DNA of 29,739 bases from a virus (taxonomy: Duplodnaviria > Heunggongvirae > Uroviricota > Caudoviricetes), in the IMG/VR virus record IMGVR_UViG_2531839666_000033, positions 1 through 29,739 of that record. One strand, given 5' to 3'. Of this stretch, positions 2,977-25,039 are shown piece by piece. The notes beneath the pieces were generated by a model. The model made no database searches, was not told the DNA's origin, and saw nothing but the letters and a program-made list of their open reading frames with translations. Position 1 is the first letter of the stretch, and every line of letters begins with the position of its first letter. The translations under genes were made by a program, and so were the position numbers.

Positions 2977-3010
2977 CCCCGTTTGTTGGCAGCAAGCGGG
3001 GTTTTGTGTT
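2977..3010 (+). terminator. Rho-independent terminator downstream of the endolysin
   Basis: 9-bp stem CCCCGTTTG/CAAGCGGGG (one G-U pair), 7-nt loop, then TTTTGTGTTTCT. Confidence 0.6.
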
Positions 3011-3243
3011 TCTGACCTTGGATAAGGCAAGGGAGAACATGGAAAAGTATAAACGAATTCTGTTGAGGTTGACTATGAAAAACGGCCTTGAACTGAAAGC
3101 GCCAGAGTAACTGATGACATCAGCAGAGCGCTGGCTTTTGCTATTAAGTGGGTGGCGGTTGGTATCGCTGTGTCTCCGATACTGTATGGGCTGGCAAAAC
3201 TGGTCATTGCGTTGAAATCGTAAACGGGGATTAAGAGGTAATC

Positions 3244-3375
3244 ATGTCACGCAAACTCATAATGCTGGGGGAAATCCTCTGGGTCATTGTCTGCATTTCA
3301 TTTTCAGCAACGCTGATTGCTCTTCTTCTTTCTATGGCATGGATGACGTTGAATTCGGCAGGGCTGGTGGGGTGA
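3244..3375 (+). CDS. small hydrophobic membrane peptide (43 aa) inserted between endolysin and Rz
   Basis: ORF MSRKLIMLGEILWVIVCISFSATLIALLLSMAWMTLNSAGLVG with RBS AAGAGG 6 nt upstream of the ATG; below the ORF-track cutoff, found by manual translation. Confidence 0.35.
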   Translation: MSRKLIMLGEILWVIVCISFSATLIALLLSMAWMTLNSAGLVG

Positions 3376-3382
3376 CAACGAT

Positions 3383-3876
3383 ATGAACCGGGCACTGTGT
3401 GGCGTGATTATTGTCCTGCTGGTGGCCTGTGGTGCGCTGTGGCTGGCAACAGACCATTACCGCGATAATGCCATCACCTACAAAGCGCAGCGCGATAAAA
3501 AGCCAGCGAGCTGGAGCTGGCAAACGCAACCATTACTGACATGCAGCAGCGCCAGCGTGATGTTGCTGCGCTGGATGAAAAATACACAAAGGAATTAGCC
3601 GATGCGAGAGCTGAAAATGAAACTCTGCGCGCTGATGTTGCCGCTGGTCGTAAGCGCCTGCGGATCAACGCCACCTGCTCCGGTACCGTGCGTGAATCCA
3701 CCGGCACCGCCCGCGTGGATAATGCAACCGGCCCCCGACTGGCAGACACCGCTGAACGGGATTATTTCATCCTCAGAGAACGGTTGATGACAATGCAGAA
3801 GCAGCTGGAAGGGGCGCAGGAATATATCCGCACTCAGTGCACTAAGCTGGCTTTTTATTATCCGGAGGATACATGA
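3383..3876 (+). pseudogene. Rz: i-spanin Rz, reading frame disrupted by a 1-nt deletion in an A-run (A5 at 3497-3501)
   Basis: N-terminal ORF 3383..3598 (MNRALCGVIIVLLVACGALWLATDHYRDNAITYKAQRDKK) and ORF 3541..3876 (…QQRQRDVAALDEKYTKELADARAENETLRADVAAGRKRLRI…) together match lambda Rz; the frames join if one A is added at gataaaaag. Confidence 0.8.
3602..3787 (+). CDS. Rz1: o-spanin Rz1 lipoprotein, embedded in the +1 frame of Rz
   Basis: MRELKMKLCALMLPLVVSACGSTPPAPVPCVNPPAPPAWIMQPAPDWQTPLNGIISSSENG: lipobox VVSAC, proline-rich, resembles lambda Rz1. Confidence 0.8.
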   Translation: MRELKMKLCALMLPLVVSACGSTPPAPVPCVNPPAPPAWIMQPAPDWQTPLNGIISSSENG

Positions 3877-4097
3877 AGAAATTACTGGTAACCGTAAAGC
3901 CTTTTCAGGGAACAATTCCGTTCCGTATTTTGCAGCGTGGTCGTGTTCTTGTTGAAGGTTCGTTCAGTGGTAAATGTACGCAATTACACTCCCGGACCTT
4001 TCAGGTGAATGCCACGAATGAAGAGCTAACCGTTGAGTGTACGATGAATGCCGCTAAATGCCGCATGGTATCGGCTGCATTACAGCCAGTGTGTTGA
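3873..4097 (+). CDS. hypothetical protein (74 aa), translationally coupled to the Rz stop
   Basis: GGAGG RBS 5 nt upstream of ATG 3873; ATGA overlap with the Rz stop; not Bor-like. Confidence 0.45.
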   Translation: MKKLLVTVKPFQGTIPFRILQRGRVLVEGSFSGKCTQLHSRTFQVNATNEELTVECTMNAAKCRMVSAALQPVC

Positions 4098-4454
4098 GCG
4101 ACCTTATTATCCATGGCGCGGTATTGTCGCCGTATTCCCGCATTAACAGAGACCGCAGCCCGACAGGGAGACTCCTCTGCGCGAGTGTGTGGGGATAATC
4201 AAAAACGATACACACCGGGGTTTACCGCGTTAACGGAGCGCGGCGTTGTCCCCTCATGGTCGCTGGTCCGGTGCGATGGTGGAAGAAACCGGATATTTAC
4301 GATGTTTACCTGAGAATACGGGAAAGGATTCGTTGAGTTTCAGCACATTTTTGTATTCAGATAATTGAATATCAGTTTATTTTACTTTTAACATATTGAT
4401 AATAAAAAGGACTGTAATACCAGAGATAAGTTGAGTGTGTTCGGGGAACGACAA

Positions 4455-4592
4455 ATGGGTTTAATGCTGACGATTGCTGGTGTGATTGTATTATTTATTG
4501 CCTGTAATGCAGATAAATACGGTTACCCTCTGTTATCACGCATTGGCGCTTATTGTGCGCTGATACTGATCTTCTCGTCGCTTTTTTTTTGA
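4455..4592 (+). CDS. small hydrophobic peptide (45 aa), putative
   Basis: MGLMLTIAGVIVLFIACNADKYGYPLLSRIGAYCALILIFSSLFF; AT-rich codons; GGGGA 7 nt upstream. Overlaps a convergent minus-strand ORF (4536..4727), so at most one of the two is real. Confidence 0.25.
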   Translation: MGLMLTIAGVIVLFIACNADKYGYPLLSRIGAYCALILIFSSLFF

Positions 4593-5127: not shown

Positions 5128-5301
5128 CGCGCGTTTTCACTATTTATGAAAATTTTCTGGGGAAAATCATGTCGGTACTGATTATATGTAATGTATTGTT
5201 TTTAAACGGTACGTAAGAAAAAAGGACCGTCACAGGTGCGTGGAAGAAAGGCATTTTCAGGCCGTTTTGTGTCGTAACTGATTTTTGAATGAGGTTGTTG
5301 T

Positions 5302-5850
5302 ATGAATGTTAACAAAAAGAACCTTGCGGAAATGTTTAATGTTGATCCGCGTACAATTGAACGCTGGCAAACTCAGGGGCTCCCTCAGATATCTGGTGGA
5401 GGAAAAGGTATTGAGATCATTTTTGATTCTGCGAAGGCGATCGAATGGTATGCGCAGCGTGAAGCCGATATTGAAAACGAAAAACTCCGTAAAGAGGTCG
5501 AAGATTTGAGAGCTGCCAGCGAGACTGACCTTCAGCCTGGTACCATTGATTACGAACGTTACCGACTGACGAAGGCACAGGCAGATGCACAGGAACTGAA
5601 AAATGCCCGCGACAGTGGGCAGGTGATTGATACTGGTTTTTGTATGTATGCACTGGCGCGTCTTGCGCAGGACATTTCCGGTATTCTTGACAGTATTCCA
5701 CTGTATATGCAGAGACAATTCCCTGAATTTCCCCCTTCCGCCCTTGAGTTTTTGAAATCGGAGATAGCAAAAGCATCTAACAAGTGTGCGGATACTGCAG
5801 ATGGGTTACCAGATATGCTTGCAGACTACATTAGAGAGTCAAATTCATAA
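5302..5850 (+). CDS. nu1: terminase small subunit (lambda Nu1-like)
   Basis: 182 aa; [12 protein letters not shown]…[74 protein letters not shown] closely matches lambda Nu1; GAGG RBS. Confidence 0.95.
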
Positions 5851-7750: not shown

Positions 7751-7940
7751 ACTGCAGGCGCTGCGTCAGGCGCGCCTTGATTTATTAACCGGTAAACGGG
7801 TGGTGTCTGTCCAGAAAGATGGTCGCAGAATTGAATATACGGCGGCTTCTCTGGATGAGCTTAACCGTGCGATCAATGATGCGGAGTCGGTACTGGGGAC
7901 AACCCGCCGTCGCCGTCGTCCGCTGGGAGTGAGGTTATGA
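7734..7940 (+). CDS. W: head-tail joining protein (lambda gpW-like)
   Basis: 68 aa; LTGKRVVSVQKDGRRIEYTAASLDELNRAI matches lambda W. Confidence 0.9.
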   Translation: MVTVAELQALRQARLDLLTGKRVVSVQKDGRRIEYTAASLDELNRAINDAESVLGTTRRRRRPLGVRL

Positions 7941-9529
7941 AACGAACGCCTGTCCTGATTGATGTGAACGGCGTTCCGCTTCGGGAGAGTCTCAGCTACC
8001 ACGGGGGCGGTGCAGGATTTGGCGGGCAAATGGCGGAGTGGTTGCCACCCTCGCAGAGTGCCGATGCGGCCCTGCTGCCCGCGTTGCGTCTGGGGAATGC
8101 CCGTGCAGATGATCTGGTGCGCAATAACGGGATAGCGGCTAATGCGGTGGCCCTGCATAAGGATCATATTGTCGGGCATATGTTTCTGATCAGCTACCGT
8201 CCGAACTGGCGCTGGCTGGGGATGCGGGAGACTGCGGCAAAAAGTTTTGTCGATGAGGTGGAGGCGGCCTGGTCGGAATACGCAGAAGGGATGTTTGGCG
8301 AGATCGACGTGGAAGGGAAACGTACGTTTACGGAATTTATCCGTGAAGGTGTGGGCGTTCATGCCTTTAACGGCGAAATCTTTGTGCAGCCGGTCTGGGA
8401 CACGGAGAGCACGCAGCTGTTTCGTACGCGTTTTAAAGCCGTGAGTCCGAAACGGGTGGACACGCCAGGGCACGGTATGGGGAACCGCTTTCTGCGGGCC
8501 GGTGTGGAGGTCGATCGATATGGCCGTGCCGTTGCGTACCATATCTGTGAGGATGATTTTCCGTTCTCCGGGAGTGGACGATGGGAACGGATCCCGCGTG
8601 AACTTCCCACCGGGCGTCCGGCCATGCTGCATATTTTCGAGCCGGTGGAGGACGGGCAGACCCGTGGAGCCAATCAGTTTTACAGCGTCATGGAACGGCT
8701 GAAGATGCTCGATTCCCTGCAGGCAACACAGCTTCAGTCGGCCATAGTGAAGGCGATGTATGCAGCGACGATTGAAAGTGAACTTGATACCGAAAAGGCC
8801 TTTGAATATATCGCGGGGGCACCGCAGGGTCAGCAGGATAATCCGCTTATTAATATTCTGGAGAAGTTCTCCAGCTGGTATGACACGAATCATGTGACGC
8901 TGGGCGGTGCCAAAATTCCGCACCTTTTCCCCGGTGATGATCTGAAACTGCAGACCGCGCAGGATTCAGACAATGGATTTTCGGCGCTTGAACAGGCGCT
9001 GCTGCGGTATATCGCCGCCGGTCTTGGCGTTTCCTACGAACAGTTGTCCCGTGATTACTCGAAGGTCAGTTATTCAAGTGCCCGCGCCTCTGCCAATGAG
9101 TCGTGGCGCTATTTTATGGGACGACGAAAATTTATTGCGGCCCGGCTGGCCACGCAGATGTTTTCCTGCTGGCTGGAAGAGGCACTTCTTCGGGGGATTA
9201 TCCGTCCGCCACGGGCACGTTTTGATTTTTATCAGGCGCGATCAGCCTGGTCACGGGCAGAGTGGATTGGTGCCGGAAGAATGGCCATTGACGGGCTCAA
9301 GGAGGTCCAGGAATCGGTGATGCGTATTGATTCCGGACTGAGCACGTATGAGAAAGAGCTGGCGCTGATGGGTGAGGATTATCAGGACATTTTCCGCCAG
9401 CAGGTCAGGGAATCCGCAGAGCGGGAAAAGGCCGGACTCTCACGTCCGGTGTGGATAGCGCAGGCGTATCAGCAGCAGATAGCGGAGAGCCGCAGGCCGG
9501 AAGAGGAGACAACACCACGTGAGACGTAA
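7937..9529 (+). CDS. B: portal protein (lambda gpB-like)
   Basis: 530 aa; SYHGGGAGFGGQ, GNARADDLVRNNG, LQSAIVKAMYAATIESELDT, GRMAIDGLKEVQE all match lambda B. Confidence 0.95.
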   Translation: MKRTPVLIDVNGVPLRESLSYHGGGAGFGGQMAEWLPPSQSADAALLPALRLGNARADDLVRNNGIAANAVALHKDHIVGHMFLISYRPNWRWLGMRETAAKSFVDEVEAAWSEYAEGMFGEIDVEGKRTFTEFIREGVGVHAFNGEIFVQPVWDTESTQLFRTRFKAVSPKRVDTPGHGMGNRFLRAGVEVDRYGRAVAYHICEDDFPFSGSGRWERIPRELPTGRPAMLHIFEPVEDGQTRGANQFYSVMERLKMLDSLQATQLQSAIVKAMYAATIESELDTEKAFEYIAGAPQGQQDNPLINILEKFSSWYDTNHVTLGGAKIPHLFPGDDLKLQTAQDSDNGFSALEQALLRYIAAGLGVSYEQLSRDYSKVSYSSARASANESWRYFMGRRKFIAARLATQMFSCWLEEALLRGIIRPPRARFDFYQARSAWSRAEWIGAGRMAIDGLKEVQESVMRIDSGLSTYEKELALMGEDYQDIFRQQVRESAEREKAGLSRPVWIAQAYQQQIAESRRPEEETTPRET

Positions 9530-11024
9530 TCTTTCACACATTATTGCCGCAGCGTTCAATGAACCGCTGCTTCTGGAGCCCGCCTATGCGCGGGTTTTCT
9601 TTTGCGCGCTCGGACGCGAGATGGGGGCTGCAAGTCTTTCGGTACCACAACAGCAGGTACAGCTTGATGCTCCCGGAATGCTGGCTGAAACGGACGAGTA
9701 CATGGCCGGAGGTAAACGACCGGCCCGTGTTTACCGGGTGGTGAACGGTATTGCGGTACTGCCGGTGACCGGCACGCTGGTGCACCGGCTGGGTGGCATG
9801 CGGCCATTTTCCGGAATGACAGGCTATGACGGCATTGTCGCCTGTCTTCAGCAGGCAATGGCGGATAGCCAGGTGCGGGGCGTACTGCTGGACATTGACA
9901 GTCCGGGCGGGCAGGCCGCAGGCGCGTTTGACTGCGCTGACATGATTTACCGCCTCCGGCAGCAGAAGCCTGTCTGGGCACTGTGCAATGACACGGCCTG
10001 TTCTGCAGCCATGCTGCTGGCGTCGGCCTGCTCCCGACGGCTGGTTACCCAGACATCCCGTATCGGCTCCATTGGCGTGATGATGAGCCATGTCAGCTAT
10101 GCCGGTCATCTGGCGCAGGCCGGGGTGGATATCACGCTGATTTATGCCGGGGCGCATAAGGTGGATGGCAATCAGTTTGAAGCGTTACCGTCAGAGGTGC
10201 GTCAGGACATGCAGCAGCGCATTGATGCGGCGCACCGGATGTTTGCCGAAAAAGTGGCGATGTATACGGGGCTGTCTGTGGACGCTGTCACGGGGACAGA
10301 GGCTGCCGTTTTTGAAGGTCAGTCCGGCCTTAATACCGGACTGGCGGATGAATTAATCAATGCGTCGGATGCCATCAGCGTGATGGCTGCGGCGCTGAAC
10401 ACACATGATACAGGAGGCACTATGCCGCAATTAACTGCAACGGAAGCTGCCGCGCAGGAGAACCAGCGAGTGATGGGGATCCTGACGTGTCAGGAAGCGA
10501 AAGGACGTGAACACCTTGCCACGATGCTGGCAGGACAACAGGGCATGAGCGTTGAACAGGCCCGGGCGATTCTGACCGCGGCAGCACCACAGCAGCCGGT
10601 GGCATCCGCGCAGAGTGAAGCCGATCGCATTATGGCGTGTGAAGAGGCTAAAGGTCGTGAACAACTGGCGGCAACGCTGGCGGCGATGCCGGAGATGACG
10701 GTGGAAAAAGCCCGCCTGATCCTGGCGGCTGCACCACTGGCGGATGCCGGGCCCTCACTCCGTGATCAGATCATGGCCCTGGATGAGGCAAAAGGGGCTG
10801 AGGCGCAGGCTGAAAAACTGGCGGCCTGCCCGGGAATGACCGTGGAGAACGCCCGGGCTGTGCTGGCTGCGGGATCAGGTAAGGCAGAACCGGTTTCTGC
10901 ATCCACAACCGCCCTGTTTGAACATTTCATGGCGAACCATTCACCGGCAGCGGTACAGGGTGGCGTGCCACAGACGTCAGCAGACGGTGATGCGGACGTG
11001 AAAATGCTCATGGCCATGCCATGA
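9519..11024 (+). CDS. C: head maturation protease / scaffold (lambda gpC with in-frame Nu3-like scaffold region), carrying three tandem copies of the scaffold motif
   Basis: N-terminal S49/ClpP-like protease region matches lambda C (AFNEPLLLEPAYARVFFCAL, PVWALCNDTACSAAMLLASA); the C-terminal part contains three ~50-aa repeats of an MGIL/MACEEAKGRE…MTVE.AR.ILAAAP module. Confidence 0.9.
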   Translation: MRRNLSHIIAAAFNEPLLLEPAYARVFFCALGREMGAASLSVPQQQVQLDAPGMLAETDEYMAGGKRPARVYRVVNGIAVLPVTGTLVHRLGGMRPFSGMTGYDGIVACLQQAMADSQVRGVLLDIDSPGGQAAGAFDCADMIYRLRQQKPVWALCNDTACSAAMLLASACSRRLVTQTSRIGSIGVMMSHVSYAGHLAQAGVDITLIYAGAHKVDGNQFEALPSEVRQDMQQRIDAAHRMFAEKVAMYTGLSVDAVTGTEAAVFEGQSGLNTGLADELINASDAISVMAAALNTHDTGGTMPQLTATEAAAQENQRVMGILTCQEAKGREHLATMLAGQQGMSVEQARAILTAAAPQQPVASAQSEADRIMACEEAKGREQLAATLAAMPEMTVEKARLILAAAPLADAGPSLRDQIMALDEAKGAEAQAEKLAACPGMTVENARAVLAAGSGKAEPVSASTTALFEHFMANHSPAAVQGGVPQTSADGDADVKMLMAMP

Positions 11025-11060
11025 AGCCAGTGCTGACCATCAATAGGAGGTTTTAACAAT

Positions 11061-11408
11061 ATGGTGACGAAAACCATCACTGAACAACGTGCAGAAGTAC
11101 GTATTTTTGCCGGTAATGATCCGGCTCATACCGCCACAGGCAGCAGCGGGATTTCTCAGGCAACACCGGCACTGACGCCCCTGATGCTGGATGAAGCCAG
11201 CGGGAAACTGGTGGTCTGGGACGGACAGAAAGCCGGTAGTGCGGTTGGCATACTGGTACTGCCGCTTGAAGGCACAGAGACGGTGCTGACGTATTACAAG
11301 TCGGGGACCTTTGCGACGGAGGCAATCCGCTGGCCTGAAAGTGTGGATGAACACAAAAAGGCCAACGCCTTTGTCGGCACAGCCCTGAGTCACGCGGCGC
11401 TGCCGTAA
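11061..11408 (+). CDS. D: head decoration protein (lambda gpD-like)
   Basis: 115 aa; DPAHTATG…TPLMLD…KLVVWDG…GILVL…YYKSGTF matches lambda D; AGGAGG RBS. Confidence 0.9.
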   Translation: MVTKTITEQRAEVRIFAGNDPAHTATGSSGISQATPALTPLMLDEASGKLVVWDGQKAGSAVGILVLPLEGTETVLTYYKSGTFATEAIRWPESVDEHKKANAFVGTALSHAALP

Positions 11409-11465
11409 CACGTTATCAGGCCACCGCGTTGGCCTGACTGATTTCTGAATGAAAGGAACTGATTT

Positions 11466-12494
11466 ATGGGATTGTTTACGACCCGCCAGTTACTCGGTTA
11501 TACCGAACAAAAAGTGAAATTTCGTGCGCTGTTTCTGGAACTGTTTTTCCGCCGTACGGTGAATTTCCACACCGAAGAGGTGATGCTGGACAAAATTACC
11601 GGAAAAACGCCGGTGGCAGCCTATGTCTCCCCGGTTGTTGAAGGAAAAGTGCTGCGTCATCGTGGTGGTGAAACCCGCGTGTTACGTCCGGGCTACGTCA
11701 AGCCGAAACACGAATTTAATTACCAGCAGGCGGTGGAGCGCCTTCCCGGTGAAGATCCGGCGCAGCTGAACGACCCGGCCTACCGTCGTCTGCGTATCAT
11801 CACCGATAACCTCAAACAGGAAGAGCACGCCATTGTCCAGGTGGAAGAAATGCAGGCGGTGAATGCCGTGCTGTATGGCAAATACACCATGGAAGGAGAC
11901 CAGTTCGAGAAAATTGAGGTTGATTTTGGCAGATCGACGAAGAATAACATCATACAGGGTAGCGGTAAGGAGTGGTCAAAACAGGACCGTGACACGTTCG
12001 ACCCGACATATGATATCGACCTTTTCTGTGATCAGGCCAGCGGTCTTGTGAATATTGCCATCATGGACGGTACCGTCTGGCGTCTGCTGAATGGCTTTAA
12101 GCTGTTCAGCGAAAAACTGGATACCCGTCGCGGCTCAAATTCACAACTCGAAACGGCAGTGAAAGACCTGGGGTCGGTGGTGTCTTTCAAGGGGTATTAC
12201 GGTGATCTGGCCATTGTGGTGGCGAAAACATCTTATGTGGCAGAGGACGGTACCGAAAAACGTTATTTGCCGGAGGGCACGCTGGTCCTGGGAAATACGG
12301 CTGCTGAGGGCATCCGTTGCTATGGTGCCATTCAGGATGCGCAGGCGTTGTCCGAAGGTGTGGTGGCCTCTTCCCGTTATCCGAAACACTGGATGACCGT
12401 GGGCGATCCGGCCCGTGAATTCACCATGACGCAGTCCGCTCCGCTGATGGTGCTGCCGGATCCGGATGAGTTTGTGGTGGTACAGGTGAAATAA
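11466..12494 (+). CDS. E: major capsid protein (lambda gpE-like)
   Basis: 342 aa; YVKPKHE, AIVQVEEMQAVNAVLYGKYTM, DTRRGSNSQLETAVKDLG, GDPAREFTMTQSAPLMVLPDPDEFV match lambda E. Confidence 0.95.
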   Translation: MGLFTTRQLLGYTEQKVKFRALFLELFFRRTVNFHTEEVMLDKITGKTPVAAYVSPVVEGKVLRHRGGETRVLRPGYVKPKHEFNYQQAVERLPGEDPAQLNDPAYRRLRIITDNLKQEEHAIVQVEEMQAVNAVLYGKYTMEGDQFEKIEVDFGRSTKNNIIQGSGKEWSKQDRDTFDPTYDIDLFCDQASGLVNIAIMDGTVWRLLNGFKLFSEKLDTRRGSNSQLETAVKDLGSVVSFKGYYGDLAIVVAKTSYVAEDGTEKRYLPEGTLVLGNTAAEGIRCYGAIQDAQALSEGVVASSRYPKHWMTVGDPAREFTMTQSAPLMVLPDPDEFVVVQVK

Positions 12495-21169: not shown

Positions 21170-24100
21170 GTGGGTAAAGGGGGCGACAAGGGGCACACAC
21201 CGCGTGAGGCGAAGGACAATCTCAAATCCACGCAGATGATGAGCGTGATTGATGCCATTGGTGAGGGACCGGTGGAAGGTCCGGTGAAGGGACTGCAGAG
21301 TATTCTGGTGAACAAAACCCCGCTGACGGACACGGACGGTAATCCCGTGATACACGGTGTGACCGCCGTCTGGCGTGCCGGGGAGCAGGAGCAGACACCG
21401 CCGGAAGGCTTTGAGTCCTCCGGGGCGGAAACCGCACTGGGCGTGGAGGTGACGAAGGCAAAGCCGGTGACGCGCACCATCACGTCAGCGAACATTGACC
21501 GTCTGCGGGTCACCTTCGGGGTACAGTCACTGGTGGAGACCACCTCAAAGGGTGACCGTAATCCCTCTTCTGTCCGCCTGCTGATTCAGCTTGAGCGTAA
21601 CGGGCACTGGGTGACGGAGAAGGATGTCACCATTAACGGCAAGACCACCTCGCAGTATCTGACGTCGGTGATTCTGAATAATCTCCCTGAGCGCCCCTTT
21701 AACATCCGGATGGTCAGGGTGACGGCGGACAGCACCACGGACCAGCTGCAGAACAGAACGCTGTGGTCGTCATACACCGAAATCATCGATGTGAAACAGT
21801 GCTACCCGAACACGGCCATTGTGGGGCTGCAGGTGGATGCGGAGCAGTTTGGTGGCCAGCAGCTGACGGTGAACTACCATATCCGCGGTCGCATCATTCA
21901 GGTGCCGTCAAACTATGACCCGGAAAAACGCACCTACAGCGGTATCTGGGACGGGAGTCTGAAACCGGCATACAGCAATAACCCGGCCTGGTGCCTGTGG
22001 GACATGCTGACCCACCCGCGCTACGGGATGGGAAAACGCCTGGGGGCCGCGGATGTGGACAAGTGGGCACTGTATGCCATCGGGCAGTACTGCGACCAGA
22101 CGGTCCCGGATGGTTTCGGGGGCACAGAGCCGCGGATGACCTTTAATGCGTACCTGTCACAGCAGCGTAAGGTGTGGGATGTCCTGGGGGATTTCTGCTC
22201 GGCGATGCGCTGTATGCCGGTATGGAACGGCCAGACGCTGACGTTCGTTCAGGACCGCCCGTCGGATGTGGTGTGGCCGTACACCAACAGCGATGTGGTG
22301 GTGGATGATAACGGCGTGGGGTTCCGCTACAGCTTCAGTGCCCTGAAGGACCGGCACACGGCGGTGGAGGTGAATTACACCGACCCGCAGAACGGCTGGC
22401 AGACTTCCACGGAACTGGTGGAAGACCCGGACGCCATCCTGCGCTACGGGCGCAATCTGCTGAAGATGGATGCGTTTGGCTGTACCAGCCGCGGTCAGGC
22501 CCACCGTGCCGGACTGTGGGTGATAAAGACAGAACTGCTGGAAACGCAGACGGTGGATTTCACGCTCGGGTCACAGGGGCTGCGGCACACGCCCGGTGAC
22601 ATTATTGAAATCTGTGATAACGACTACGCAGGGACCCTGACCGGCGGACGCATCCTGTCCATCGATGCCGCCAGCCGTACCCTGACGCTGGACCGTGAGG
22701 TGACACTGCCGGAAGCAGGGACATCGACGGTGAACCTGATTAACGGCAGCGGTAAGCCGGTGCGCGTGGACATCACTGCACACCCCGCCCCGGACCGGAT
22801 ACAGGTCAGTACCCTGCCTGATGGTGTGGAGACATACGGGGTGTGGGGACTCTCCCTGCCGTCACTGCGCCGTCGCCTGTTCCGCTGTGTCTCCATCCGG
22901 GAAAACACGGACGGCACCTTTGCCATCACGGCAGTGCAGCACGTACCGGAAAAAGAAGCCATCGTGGATAACGGGGCCCGCTTTGAGCCGCTCTCCGGCT
23001 CACTGAACAGCGTCATCCCGCCGGCAGTGCAGCACCTCACGGTGGAGGTGAGTGCCTCAGACGGCCAGTATCTGGCGCTGGCGAAATGGGACACGCCGCG
23101 GGTGGTGAAGGGCGTGCGCTTCAGTCTGCGCCTGACCAGTGGCAGTGGTGAAAACAGCCGCCTGGTGACCACCGCCATCACTGCCGACACGGAGCACCGT
23201 TTCAGTGGCCTGCCTCTGGGGGAATACACCCTGACGGTCAGGGCGATAAACAGCTACGGCCAGCAGGGCGAACCTGCCACCACCGCGTTCCGGATTAATG
23301 CGCCTGCAGCACCGGCCAGCATTGAGCTGACGCCGGGGTATTATCAGATAACAGCAGTACCGGTGCTGGCGGTGTATGACCCGACGGTACAGTCTGAATT
23401 CTGGTTCTCAGAAAAACGCATCACGGACATGGCACAGGTGGAAACCTTTGCCCGTTATCTGGGGACAGGCAGCCAGTGGAGTGTCTCCGGCCCGCACATT
23501 AAGCCGGGGAAGGATTTCTGGTTTTATGTGCGCAGCGTCAATCTGGTGGGGAAATCTGCGTTTGTGGAAGCCAGTGGCCGGGCGAGCAATGATGCGGAAG
23601 GGTATCTGGACTTTTTCAGAGGAGAAATCGGGAAGACACATCTGGCACAGGGGATGTGGGAGCTGATTGATAACAGCCAGCTTGATGATGAGATGGCGGA
23701 GATGAAGACCACCATCACAGAAACCCGCAATGAAATCACACAGACGGTCAGTAAAACCCTGGAAGACCAGAGTGCCACCATACAGCAGATACAGCGGGTG
23801 CAGACAGACACAAATAACGACCTGGCTGCGCTGTACATGCTGAAGGTACAGAAAACGAAAACGGCATTCCGTATGTTGCCGGTATAGGTGCGGGGATTGA
23901 GGATGCTGATGGCCAGCCCCTGAGCAATATTCTGCTGCAGGCGGACCGTATCGCGATGATTAACCCGGAGAACGGCAACACCACGCCGCTGTTTGTGGCG
24001 CAGGGGAATCAGCTGTTCATGAACGATGTGTTCCTGAAGCGGTTGTTTGCAGTGAGCATCACCTCGTCCGGCAATCCCCCGACGTTCTCCCTGACGCCGG

Positions 24101-24636
24101 AGGGCAGGCTGACGGCCCGCAATGCGGACATCAGCGGACATATCAGTGCGAACTCGGGCACGCTCAATAATGTCGTGATAGCGGAGAACTGTACGATAAA
24201 TGGCACGCTGAAAGCGGAGAACATTATTGGTGATCTTGTGAAATGTGCAGGGGTGGCTTTTCCGGTGGATGGTAGTTACCTTGCGAACGGTACACGAACG
24301 CTGACGGTGTATGACGATCACAGCTTTGACCGGCAGATTATAATCCCGCCGATAATCTATGTCGGGTCAAAACAGGAATCCCGTACCAGTAATGACATCT
24401 GGACAGAGTGCTTCCTGCATGTTGATCAGAACGGACGCCGGATTTATTCCGGCAGGTCAGTGACAGAGCCGGGAATTTTCAGCGGGATCATCGATATGCC
24501 AGCCGGTCATGGTCATATCACCCTGAGTTTTACCGTAAGTTCACGACGTCAGAACGGGAGTTTTGGCAGTTCACGTATCAGTAACCTTCAGGCGATAGTG
24601 GTGAAGAAAAACAGCGCGGGGATCAGCATCCGCTGA
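21170..24636 (+). pseudogene. J: tail tip / host-specificity protein (lambda gpJ-like), frame disrupted by a 1-nt deletion in an A-run (A4 at 23858-23861)
   Basis: ORF 21170..23887 matches lambda J over about 890 aa ([20 protein letters not shown]…, [35 protein letters not shown]); the conserved C-terminus (…[25 protein letters not shown]…NADISG…) continues in ORF 23956..24636; one extra A in acgaaaaCgg joins the frames. Confidence 0.9.
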
Positions 24637-25039
24637 ACATCGCGCCCCGGGATTGCCGGAAGGAGACAAAAACCGTACAGTATGCGCGGGTGCCTTTGGC
24701 TGATGGCCGGAGGGAACACCTGAAGGCCGGAAAGACGAAGGCCCCGGACAAACATTCATGTTTAACCCGAGGCCTGACTTTCGATCTTCAGCAAATTGAA
24801 GGTTAGCGCCTCTCCGTAAAAGGAGCAAGCGTTTATGTCGCAAAACCGTTAAAAACCACCGTGATTTGTATCACGGTAGTGCTCATTATCTGGATCACCC
24901 ACAGTTCACTGTGCGAGTTCCGGTTCCGGATAGCGGGCGCGGAGATTGCGGCGTTCTTACAGTGTAAGCAGTAAGAAACCGTGGCGGGGGAGAATATCCC
25001 CCGCCGACCGGTTGCTGAGGGTGGTCAGCCGGATGGCAC

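What the first reader, a model, noticed from the sequence alone, without database searches (positions are those of the whole stretch)
10468..10880. Tandem triplication of the scaffold (Nu3-like) module in the C protease/scaffold gene
The C-terminal part of the 501-aa C product contains three consecutive ~50-aa repeats (VMGILTCQEAKGREHLATMLAGQQGMSVEQARAILTAAAP / IMACEEAKGREQLAATLAAMPEMTVEKARLILAAAPL / IMALDEAKGAEAQAEKLAACPGMTVENARAVLAAGSG) of a motif that lambda C/Nu3 carries once, which accounts for the extra length over lambda C (439 aa as I recall). Triplication of a scaffold interaction motif could change capsid assembly stoichiometry, or reflect repeat expansion.
Basis: partly seen in the sequence, partly recalled or inferred. 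Interest (0 to 1): 0.45.

Follow-up and report, generated by a model that had tools for sequence, protein, structure and literature searches.

The report
Phage-21-type triple-repeat head scaffold protein
The three repeats are real, but they are the normal, long-established form of the head protease/scaffold gene of the classical lambdoid phage 21, found in about a third of E. coli genomes, so the finding is correct but ordinary.

Summary
Confirmed. The 501-aa S49 head protease (lambda C homologue, window 9519-11024) carries three tandem copies of a 41-50 aa unit (aa 318-358, 368-408, 415-455). A single 46-aa tail follows. Repeat scores far exceed shuffles.

Lambda C has the unit once. The copies are only 67-72% identical in DNA and 44-56% in protein, so this is neither a recent expansion nor an assembly artefact.

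The protein is the phage 21 gene 5/6 allele (501 aa, about 94% identical in the scaffold part). That allele occurs in 1870 of 5426 complete E. coli genomes. Three-unit forms also occur in Shigella, E. albertii, Salmonella, Trabulsiella and Providencia.

A conserved AGGAGG + ATG at 10412-10424 starts a nested 200-aa scaffolding protein, which consists almost entirely of the three units plus the tail.

Units group by position across genera and each shows dN/dS of 0.15-0.20. The triplication is therefore old and maintained by selection. Relatives carry 1-4 units; one is the rule in the wider family.

AlphaFold predicts each unit as a small three-helix domain (pLDDT 90). It has no Pfam or NCBIfam model and no PDB match.

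What the units bind, and whether copy number alters scaffold stoichiometry, is untested. Novelty is low.

The parts
9519..11024 (+). Head maturation protease / scaffold fusion gene (lambda C, phage 21 gene 5 homologue), 501 aa, GTG start overlapping the end of the portal gene
   Evidence: ORF list. Pfam Peptidase_S49 at 3.2e-35. PHROG 53 head maturation protease at 7.9e-226. 95.8% identical to phage PhiR12_2_star C/Nu3. Same length and position as phage 21 CPT_21_05.
9954..10397 (+). S49 (SppA-like) serine peptidase domain, aa 146-293; the protease part as a whole is about aa 1-297
   Evidence: Pfam PF01343 covers aa 146-293. PDB SppA 3rst/4kwb match aa 77-289 at E 2e-16. S162 and K214 are invariant in the alignment with lambda; their role as the Ser-Lys dyad is inferred.
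10412..10417 (+). AGGAGG Shine-Dalgarno sequence for the internal start
   Evidence: Read from the sequence. A GGAGG core plus ATG is conserved in the window, phage 21, lambda and N15, and a GAGG/GGAGG-type purine-rich motif also lies upstream of the ATG in E. albertii, Trabulsiella and Providencia. Annotated as an RBS in phage 21.
10422..11024 (+). Nested in-frame scaffolding-protein ORF (lambda Nu3, phage 21 gene 6 homologue), 200 aa, 20.6 kDa, pI 4.8, 24% Ala
   Evidence: Corresponds to phage 21 CPT_21_06 'scaffolding protein', 200 aa. Conserved SD + ATG. Composition. Expression was not tested here.
10446..10592 (+). Repeat unit 1 (aa 310-358, including its long first helix; 41-aa core 10470-10592)
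   Evidence: AF2 single-unit model has pLDDT 90, pTM 0.70, helices 2-13, 22-29 and 36-45. It is orthologous to lambda's single unit.
10620..10742 (+). Repeat unit 2 (aa 368-408)
   Evidence: pLDDT about 80 in the whole-scaffold model. dN/dS 0.20.
10761..10883 (+). Repeat unit 3 (aa 415-455)
   Evidence: dN/dS 0.15. Colinear, together with the tail, with lambda's unit plus tail.
10884..11021 (+). Single C-terminal tail (aa 456-501) with motif TALFEHFMANHSPAAV ... KMLMAMP; not a repeat
   Evidence: Aligns with lambda's tail. No match to the unit profile even with filters off. The motif [LF]-[DE]-x-[LF]-M...P-x-[VLIA] occurs in 50/126 relatives' tails vs 0.4 expected from shuffles. Net charge -4.
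7937..9529 (+). Portal protein gene (lambda B homologue), upstream neighbour
   Evidence: ORF. Annotation of the matching genes in phage 21 and E. coli 2013C-3181.
11061..11408 (+). Head decoration protein gene (lambda D / phage 21 SHP homologue), downstream neighbour
   Evidence: ORF. Annotations.
11466..12494 (+). Major capsid protein gene (lambda E homologue, 342 aa), the presumed partner of the scaffold
   Evidence: 61% identity to lambda E over 341 aa, E 3e-155.

Best explanation
Window 10446-10883 encodes three diverged tandem copies of a roughly 45-aa three-helix domain. This domain is the conserved C-terminal scaffold domain of lambda-gpC-type (S49) prohead proteases. The gene is the phage-21-type allele of the nested C/Nu3 pair.

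The same codons are read twice. Once they form the C-terminal 40% of the 501-aa protease. Once they form nearly the whole of a 200-aa acidic scaffolding protein started at the internal SD/ATG at 10412-10424.

Inferred mechanism: because protease and scaffold share units and tail, the protease co-assembles with the scaffold inside the growing shell of capsid protein (gene at 11466-12494). After assembly the protease degrades the scaffold and itself. I take the folded units, strung on Ala/Pro-rich flexible linkers, to be the interaction modules that build the scaffold core (scaffold-scaffold and scaffold-protease contacts). I take the single extreme C-terminal tail to be the capsid-protein anchor, as in other phage scaffolds.

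The three-unit version replaces lambda's 'long disordered linker + one unit' design and builds the same kind of capsid. The triplication is ancient, fixed and maintained by selection. It is not an unstable expansion.

Shown here: the repeats, their homology to lambda's single unit, the nested start signal, their age and selection, their distribution and the predicted fold. Inferred: expression of the nested ORF, and which part binds what.
For: Repeats are real and significant.
S49 protease identity and lambda-like gene order portal-C-D-E.
Phage 21 has the same 501-aa protein, about 94% identical in the scaffold part, with an annotated nested 200-aa scaffold.
An SD-like purine-rich motif (GGAGG, or GAGG in Providencia) + ATG is conserved in lambda, N15, phage 21, E. 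albertii, Trabulsiella and Providencia.
Units cluster by position across genera, and lambda/N15 single units are sister to the unit-1 clade.
dN/dS is 0.15-0.20 for each unit.
The allele is in 1870/5426 E. coli genomes; the lambda-type allele is in 3222/5426.
The unit profile hits 931 50%-identity clusters. The unit is typically single and lies about 35-70 aa (median 48) from the C-terminus, either of 420-530 aa proteases or of 120-170 aa stand-alone proteins.
AF2 predicts the single unit at pLDDT 90 as a 3-helix domain. In the whole scaffold, units are confident and linkers are not, with pTM 0.28, i.e. beads on a string.
The only structural matches are S49 prohead proteases of unrelated phages, TM 0.83-0.90.
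Published lambda data: Nu3 interacts with itself, with C and with E (PMC3224144).
Against: No experiment or complex model here shows what the units or the tail bind. The split 'units = core, tail = capsid anchor' rests on analogy with other scaffolds (P22, 80alpha, P2; from my own knowledge).
The most conserved surface feature, the charged EAKGRE turn, lies in the unit and not in the tail. That would also fit the unit being the capsid-binding element.
Lambda works with one unit, and natural two-unit deletion alleles exist, so three copies are not strictly required for the fold of the assembly.
Expression from the internal start was not tested for this sequence.
Confidence: 0.85

Rival explanations
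1. Valency model: each unit is itself a capsid-protein-binding module. The three-unit scaffold would then be trivalent, bridge several capsid subunits, and be needed in fewer copies per procapsid than lambda Nu3. This is the stoichiometry change the first reader suggested.
For: The unit, not the tail, is the most widely conserved element, with nearly invariant charged turn residues E17, G20 and R21 (K19 is the majority residue). Copy number varies from 1 to 4 among close relatives. Every unit is under purifying selection. Nu3-E interaction has been reported for lambda (PMC3224144).
Against: No binding data exist. The tail is always single, always C-terminal and carries its own conserved motif, which is the usual position of the capsid-binding element in scaffolds. 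The capsid protein has the same length as lambda E and is 61% identical. Phages with this allele have lambda-sized genomes of 43-52 kb, so no gross change in the capsid is indicated.
Confidence: 0.25
2. Redundant spacer: units 2 and 3 add length and bulk only, functionally equivalent to the long disordered linker of single-unit relatives, with no specific contacts of their own.
For: Single-unit relatives have a much longer protease-to-unit linker (median 61 aa, up to 154) against about 22 aa in three-unit proteins. The total post-protease length overlaps (117-227 vs 196-207 aa). Natural in-frame deletion alleles with two units exist. Lambda functions with one unit.
Against: dN/dS is 0.15-0.20 in each unit, and the core and charged-turn residues are conserved in units 2 and 3 across genera. 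This is more constraint than a spacer needs. Each unit is predicted as a folded domain. It is unknown whether the deletion alleles come from functional phages or from decaying prophages.
Confidence: 0.12
3. Recent slippage or unequal-crossover expansion, or a duplication introduced by the assembler.
For: Tandem arrangement only. A related four-unit allele (P0033), whose units 2-4 are 80-88% identical, shows that further duplication can happen.
Against: Copies are 67-72% identical in DNA and 44-56% in protein, and TRF is silent. The same three units in the same order occur in 1870 complete E. coli genomes, in phage 21, and in Trabulsiella and Providencia. Units cluster by position.
Confidence: 0.01

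Closest known systems
Phage 21 gene 5 (capsid protease/scaffolding protein) and nested gene 6 (scaffolding protein), OL657228.1 CPT_21_05/06
   Same: Same length (501 aa, nested 200 aa). About 94% identity in the scaffold part. Same three units, same tail, same internal SD/ATG, and same neighbours portal - C - decoration protein - capsid protein.
   Different: Only point substitutions. The window is a prophage copy in an E. coli-like genome.
Lambda gpC protease and gpNu3 scaffolding protein
   Same: S49 protease domain 57% identical overall. Nested in-frame scaffold with conserved SD/ATG. Same unit and homologous tail. Same gene order.
   Different: Lambda has one unit and a 36-aa extra linker segment before it. 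Its scaffold is 131 aa (13.4 kDa) against 200 aa (20.6 kDa) here.
N15 gp5/gp6 and phi80 gp5/gp6
   Same: The same nested protease/scaffold design, with the unit and a lambda-type tail.
   Different: A single unit; the nested scaffold is annotated as 137 aa.
Salmonella-, Trabulsiella- and Providencia-type S49 prophage proteases (for example P0036, L010, L011)
   Same: Three units in positional correspondence with those of the window, a short protease-to-unit linker, and a tail with the F-[DE]-x-F-M motif.
   Different: 57-63% identical in the scaffold part. Unit spacing is 47/47 aa rather than 50/47. The C-terminal ends are extended.
Protease-scaffold fusions and C-terminal capsid-binding helices of other phage scaffolds (P2 gpO, P22 gp8, 80alpha gp46), cited from my own knowledge
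   Same: Working analogy only. These are transient, acidic, largely helical internal scaffolds whose extreme C-terminus holds the capsid protein. The protease is targeted by sharing that part.
   Different: No sequence or fold relationship was detected: Foldseek against the PDB found nothing. Their proteases belong to other families, and no tandem unit is known to me in them.

Membership tests
Lambda C/Nu3-type nested S49 prohead protease + scaffold gene | N-terminal S49 (SppA-like) serine peptidase domain | tested here: met
   Pfam PF01343 at 3.2e-35, 121.8 bits against a cut-off of 24.9. PDB SppA match at E 2e-16.
Lambda C/Nu3-type nested S49 prohead protease + scaffold gene | Position between the portal gene and the decoration and major capsid protein genes | tested here: met
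   ORFs 7937-9529, 9519-11024, 11061-11408 and 11466-12494. Matching annotations in lambda, phage 21 and an E. coli prophage.
Lambda C/Nu3-type nested S49 prohead protease + scaffold gene | In-frame internal translation start with its own ribosome-binding site, giving a scaffold that shares the protease's C-terminus | tested here: met
   AGGAGG at 10412-10417 and ATG at 10422, with an SD-like motif + ATG conserved in seven lineages. This is sequence evidence only.
Lambda C/Nu3-type nested S49 prohead protease + scaffold gene | The nested product is made, enters procapsids and is degraded by the protease | not testable with these tools
   Requires protein work on procapsids.
Phage 21 gene 5/6 allele (three-unit form) | 501-aa protein with three units plus one tail, at least 90% identical to phage 21 | tested here: met
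   tblastn 94.0% over the 199-aa scaffold query. Same CDS lengths. Units pair one-to-one with those of phage 21.
Unstable tandem repeat (VNTR-like) or assembly duplication | Near-identical head-to-tail DNA copies | tested here: not met
   67-72% DNA identity between copies. No TRF array.
Curated protein domain families (Pfam, NCBIfam) | The unit or the tail matches a curated model | tested here: not met
   No family reaches its threshold on aa 300-501, on the single units or on the tail. Only PHROGs 53, 1999, 8399, 8940 and 17040 cover the region.
Helix-turn-helix capsid-binding domain of P22-type scaffolds | Structural similarity to a solved scaffold C-terminal domain | tested here: not met

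The most novel reading that the evidence does not exclude
The three-helix unit is an uncatalogued, structurally unsolved interaction domain of S49 prohead protease/scaffold proteins. Its copy number (1, 2, 3 or 4 in natural alleles) would set the valency of the scaffold, and with it the scaffold-to-capsid-protein stoichiometry or the packing of the scaffold core. Lambda, phage 21 and the natural two- and four-unit alleles would then form a ready-made allelic series for testing how lambda-type scaffolds measure and build a T=7 shell.
Probability: 0.25. Interest if true: 0.45.

Novelty: already known. Interest (0 to 1): 0.2.

Why it matters
It matters little as a discovery. The same protein is in phage 21, in about twenty other sequenced phages and in a third of complete E. 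coli genomes, where it is annotated as protease/scaffold.

It has modest value as a pointer. The repeated unit is a widespread domain (931 clusters at 50% identity) with no Pfam or NCBIfam model and no solved structure. How the lambda-type scaffold works is still poorly defined.

The natural one-, two-, three- and four-unit alleles, all paired with very similar capsid proteins, offer a simple genetic handle on that question.

The analysis also indicates that the RefSeq start of lambda nu3 (201 aa) is probably wrong. The conserved start gives 131 aa.

Tried and rejected
Tandem Repeats Finder on 9000-12000 found nothing because the copies are too diverged.

My first Python dot-plot timed out and was redone with numpy.

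PDB sequence search matched only the protease domain.

Pfam and NCBIfam have no model for the units or the tail.

I tested whether the tail is a degenerate fourth unit. It does not match the unit profile even with all filters off, so I rejected the idea.

The genome-contig scan used very narrow peptide patterns and returned only 5 loci. The taxonomic range given is therefore a minimum.

The search for homologous proteins with the 199-aa scaffold returned mostly contig-end fragments. These were useful for unit counts but not for full-length statistics.

Literature searches found no description of the repeat in the held library. The paper that first reported the phage 21 head genes (Smith and Feiss, Gene 1993, recalled from memory) is not held. 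I therefore cannot say whether the triplication was already remarked there.

The 50%-identity representative list is redundant for lambda-type fragments, so the single-copy counts and the tail-motif count are indicative only.

Full report
**The observation**

The ORF at 9519-11024 (+ strand, GTG start, 501 aa) overlaps the end of a portal-like ORF (7937-9529). It is followed by a 115-aa ORF and a 342-aa ORF.

Its last 190 residues contain three tandem copies of one motif. In a protein self-comparison, 20-residue BLOSUM62 windows score as follows:
- 62 for aa 321 against aa 371 (offset 50)
- 57 for aa 387 against aa 434 (offset 47)
- 50 for aa 337 against aa 434 (offset 97)

The maximum in 200 shuffles was 39.

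At DNA level the copies form a three-member family spaced 150 and 141 nt apart, only 67-72% identical. That divergence is why Tandem Repeats Finder reports nothing.

The 41-aa cores are aa 318-358, 368-408 and 415-455 (nt 10470-10592, 10620-10742, 10761-10883). They are 44-56% identical to each other.

**Comparison with lambda**

I fetched lambda's C gene (439 aa). The N-terminal 300 residues align throughout, with 57% overall identity.

Lambda then has a 36-aa segment that is absent here, followed by one copy of the unit (aa 361-401) and a 38-aa tail.

BLASTP of the window's C-terminal 200 aa against lambda's C-terminal 131 aa aligns lambda's one unit to each of the three window units (E 2e-17, 2e-11, 5e-9). 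The first alignment is colinear with the N-terminal flank, and the third is colinear with the tail.

The net +62 aa is roughly +97 aa for two extra units, minus lambda's extra linker segment.

**What the gene is**

Residues 146-293 match Pfam Peptidase_S49 (3.2e-35). The solved SppA structures match aa 77-289. PHROG 53, head maturation protease, matches end to end.

No Pfam or NCBIfam model covers residues 300-501, the single units or the tail. Several PHROGs annotated as scaffolding or capsid assembly protein match the unit three times.

The closest sequenced phages carry the same protein: PhiR12_2_star at 95.8% and D2 at 86%. About twenty phage records cover at least 80% of the scaffold part. 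One of them is the classical lambdoid phage 21 (OL657228.1) at 94.0%.

The phage 21 record annotates a 501-aa 'capsid protease/scaffolding protein'. Nested in frame within it is a 200-aa 'scaffolding protein' with its own ribosome-binding site.

**The nested scaffold gene**

In the window the corresponding signal is AGGAGG at 10412-10417 and ATG at 10422.

A GGAGG core plus ATG is conserved in the window, phage 21, lambda and N15. An SD-like purine-rich motif plus ATG is also present in homologues from E. albertii, Trabulsiella and Providencia.

The nested ORF 10422-11024 gives a 200-aa, 20.6-kDa, acidic (pI 4.8), alanine-rich protein. It consists of 8 residues, three units with short Ala/Pro-rich linkers, and a 46-aa tail.

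In lambda the conserved start gives 131 aa (13.4 kDa). The RefSeq nu3 feature of 201 aa has no comparable Shine-Dalgarno sequence upstream.

**Age and stability of the triplication**

The three-unit gene is present at 90-99% DNA identity in 1870 of 5426 complete E. coli genomes, with up to five copies per genome. The lambda-type single-unit allele is in 3222 of 5426.

Three-unit proteins also occur in:
- Shigella, E. albertii, Trabulsiella guamensis and Providencia alcalifaciens
- Salmonella

A neighbour-joining tree of 41-aa units groups them by position. All first units fall together, as do the second units and the third units, across these genera. The single units of lambda and N15 are sister to the first-unit group. 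The triplication therefore predates the divergence of these lineages.

Among seven E. coli-type alleles, dN/dS is 0.15, 0.20 and 0.15 for units 1, 2 and 3. Each copy is under purifying selection.

Copy number is nevertheless not fixed in the family:
- An E. coli allele (P0033) has four units, whose units 2-4 cluster together. This indicates a later duplication.
- Two-unit alleles (P0013, P0018, P0022) are deletion derivatives of the three-unit form.

An assembly artefact or a recent expansion is excluded for this window.

**The unit in the wider family**

I searched a profile of 16 units against 1.84 billion representative proteins. It found 931 clusters at E <= 0.001.

Among the best 150, 135 have one unit, 7 have two and 3 have three. 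The unit lies about 35-70 aa (median 48) from the C-terminus. It occurs either in 420-530 aa proteins (protease fusions) or in 120-170 aa proteins that could be stand-alone or nested scaffolds.

Single-unit fusions have a long protease-to-unit linker (median 61 aa, up to 154). Three-unit proteins have about 22 aa. Total post-protease lengths overlap.

The tail carries a recurrent motif, [LF]-[DE]-x-[LF]-M followed within nine residues by P-x-[VLIA]. It is seen in 50 of 126 tails against 0.4 expected in shuffles, although the set is redundant for lambda-type sequences.

The tail is not a degenerate fourth unit.

**Predicted structure**

AlphaFold2 on the 200-aa scaffold with a 14-sequence alignment gives the following:
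- three separate helical units at pLDDT about 80-85
- low-confidence linkers
- a weakly predicted helix in the tail
- pTM 0.28, meaning no fixed arrangement between units

A single unit with flanks and a 97-sequence alignment gives pLDDT 90 and pTM 0.70. It has three helices at residues 2-13, 22-29 and 36-45 of the 55-aa segment.

The conserved hydrophobic positions fit a small core. The nearly invariant E-A-K-G-R-E lies in the turn between helices 1 and 2. That this turn is surface-exposed is my inference from the model.

Foldseek finds nothing in the PDB. In the viral predicted-structure library, the only matches with TM-scores of 0.83-0.90 are S49 prohead proteases, from Salmonella phage 37, Synechococcus virus S-ESS1 and an uncultured siphovirus. 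The domain therefore travels with S49 prohead proteases well beyond the lambdoid phages.

**How it most likely works**

Shown here:
- the units and tail are shared by the protease and a nested ORF with a conserved start signal
- the units are conserved, predicted as folded domains and individually constrained by selection
- the tail is single and conserved

From published lambda work, Nu3 is the scaffold. It interacts with itself, with C and with E, is needed for portal incorporation, and is degraded (PMC3224144, read).

Inferred: sharing units and tail lets the protease co-assemble with the scaffold inside the shell. The units on flexible linkers make the scaffold-scaffold and scaffold-protease contacts of the core. 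The extreme C-terminal tail anchors to the capsid protein, by analogy with other scaffolds (my own knowledge). The protease then removes everything.

The capsid protein here is 61% identical to lambda E and one residue longer. Phages with this allele have genomes of 43-52 kb. I therefore expect the same capsid geometry as lambda, which is also an inference.

Both are listed as rivals, each with the experiment that would separate them.

**Novelty and verdict**

However, the feature is the ordinary allele of a classical phage and is very common in E. coli.

I could not find any description of the repeat in the searchable literature. I also could not read the 1993 paper on the phage 21 head genes.

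What remains of interest is modest:
- a widespread, uncatalogued, structurally unsolved three-helix domain
- a natural series of one- to four-unit alleles that could be used to probe lambda-type scaffold function

**Context of the window**

The window is the late region of a lambdoid prophage: lysis genes, terminase, portal, C, D, E, and tail genes through J and Lom. It is 96.6% identical over 92% of its first 25 kb to E. coli chromosomes.

It contains no tRNA genes. There is one Rfam hit, a sok antitoxin RNA at 24688-24837.

Noticed in passing
window 24688-24837 (+): Rfam sok antitoxin RNA (RF01794), 63.2 bits against a gathering score of 59, full-length. It lies just downstream of the Lom-like ORF 23956-24636, suggesting a hok/sok-type type I toxin-antitoxin locus in the prophage tail region.
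   Followed up: no
L001 (lambda NC_001416) 2633 vs 2843, i.e. record 5132 vs 5342: RefSeq annotates lambda nu3 as 201 aa starting at 5132, with no Shine-Dalgarno sequence upstream. The GGAGG + ATG conserved in lambda, N15, phage 21 and the window is at 5342 and gives 131 aa (13.4 kDa). The deposited start is probably wrong.
   Followed up: partly
L003 (phage D2, OM475427.1) 2986-4500: The D2 C protein is mosaic. Its first 110 or so residues are identical to lambda C and the rest is phage-21 type, so there is a recombination junction inside the protease gene.
   Followed up: no
proteins P0018, P0013, P0022, P0008, P0009 (relatives of window 10422-11021): Natural in-frame deletion alleles exist: unit 1 + unit 3 only, a unit 1/2 hybrid + unit 3, and an internal deletion within unit 2. 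It is unknown whether they come from working phages or decaying prophages.
   Followed up: partly
protein P0033 and its cluster (E. coli): A four-unit allele whose units 2-4 are 80-88% identical to each other. All the named members listed for its cluster are 'partial' proteins or short fragments, which may mean that these younger repeats break short-read assemblies.
   Followed up: partly
relatives of window 9519-11024 (P0113-P0229): Single-unit S49 protease-scaffold fusions have a protease-to-unit linker of 35-154 aa (median 61), against about 22 aa in three-unit proteins. I did not check whether the long linkers hide very diverged units.
   Followed up: no
window 10884-11021 and tails of relatives: A conserved tail motif, [LF]-[DE]-x-[LF]-M then P-x-[VLIA] within nine residues, plus a hydrophobic C-terminal end (KMLMAMP here, DLLNTPV in lambda). 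It could be a binding or cleavage element of unknown role.
   Followed up: partly
L004 (phage 21) 2503-2516 and 2737-2750, minus strand; equivalent to about window 10427-10440 and 10661-10674: The phage 21 record annotates two 'CII binding sites' (TTGYN6TTGY pattern matches) on the antisense strand inside the scaffold coding region. They are probably chance pattern matches and were not examined.
   Followed up: no
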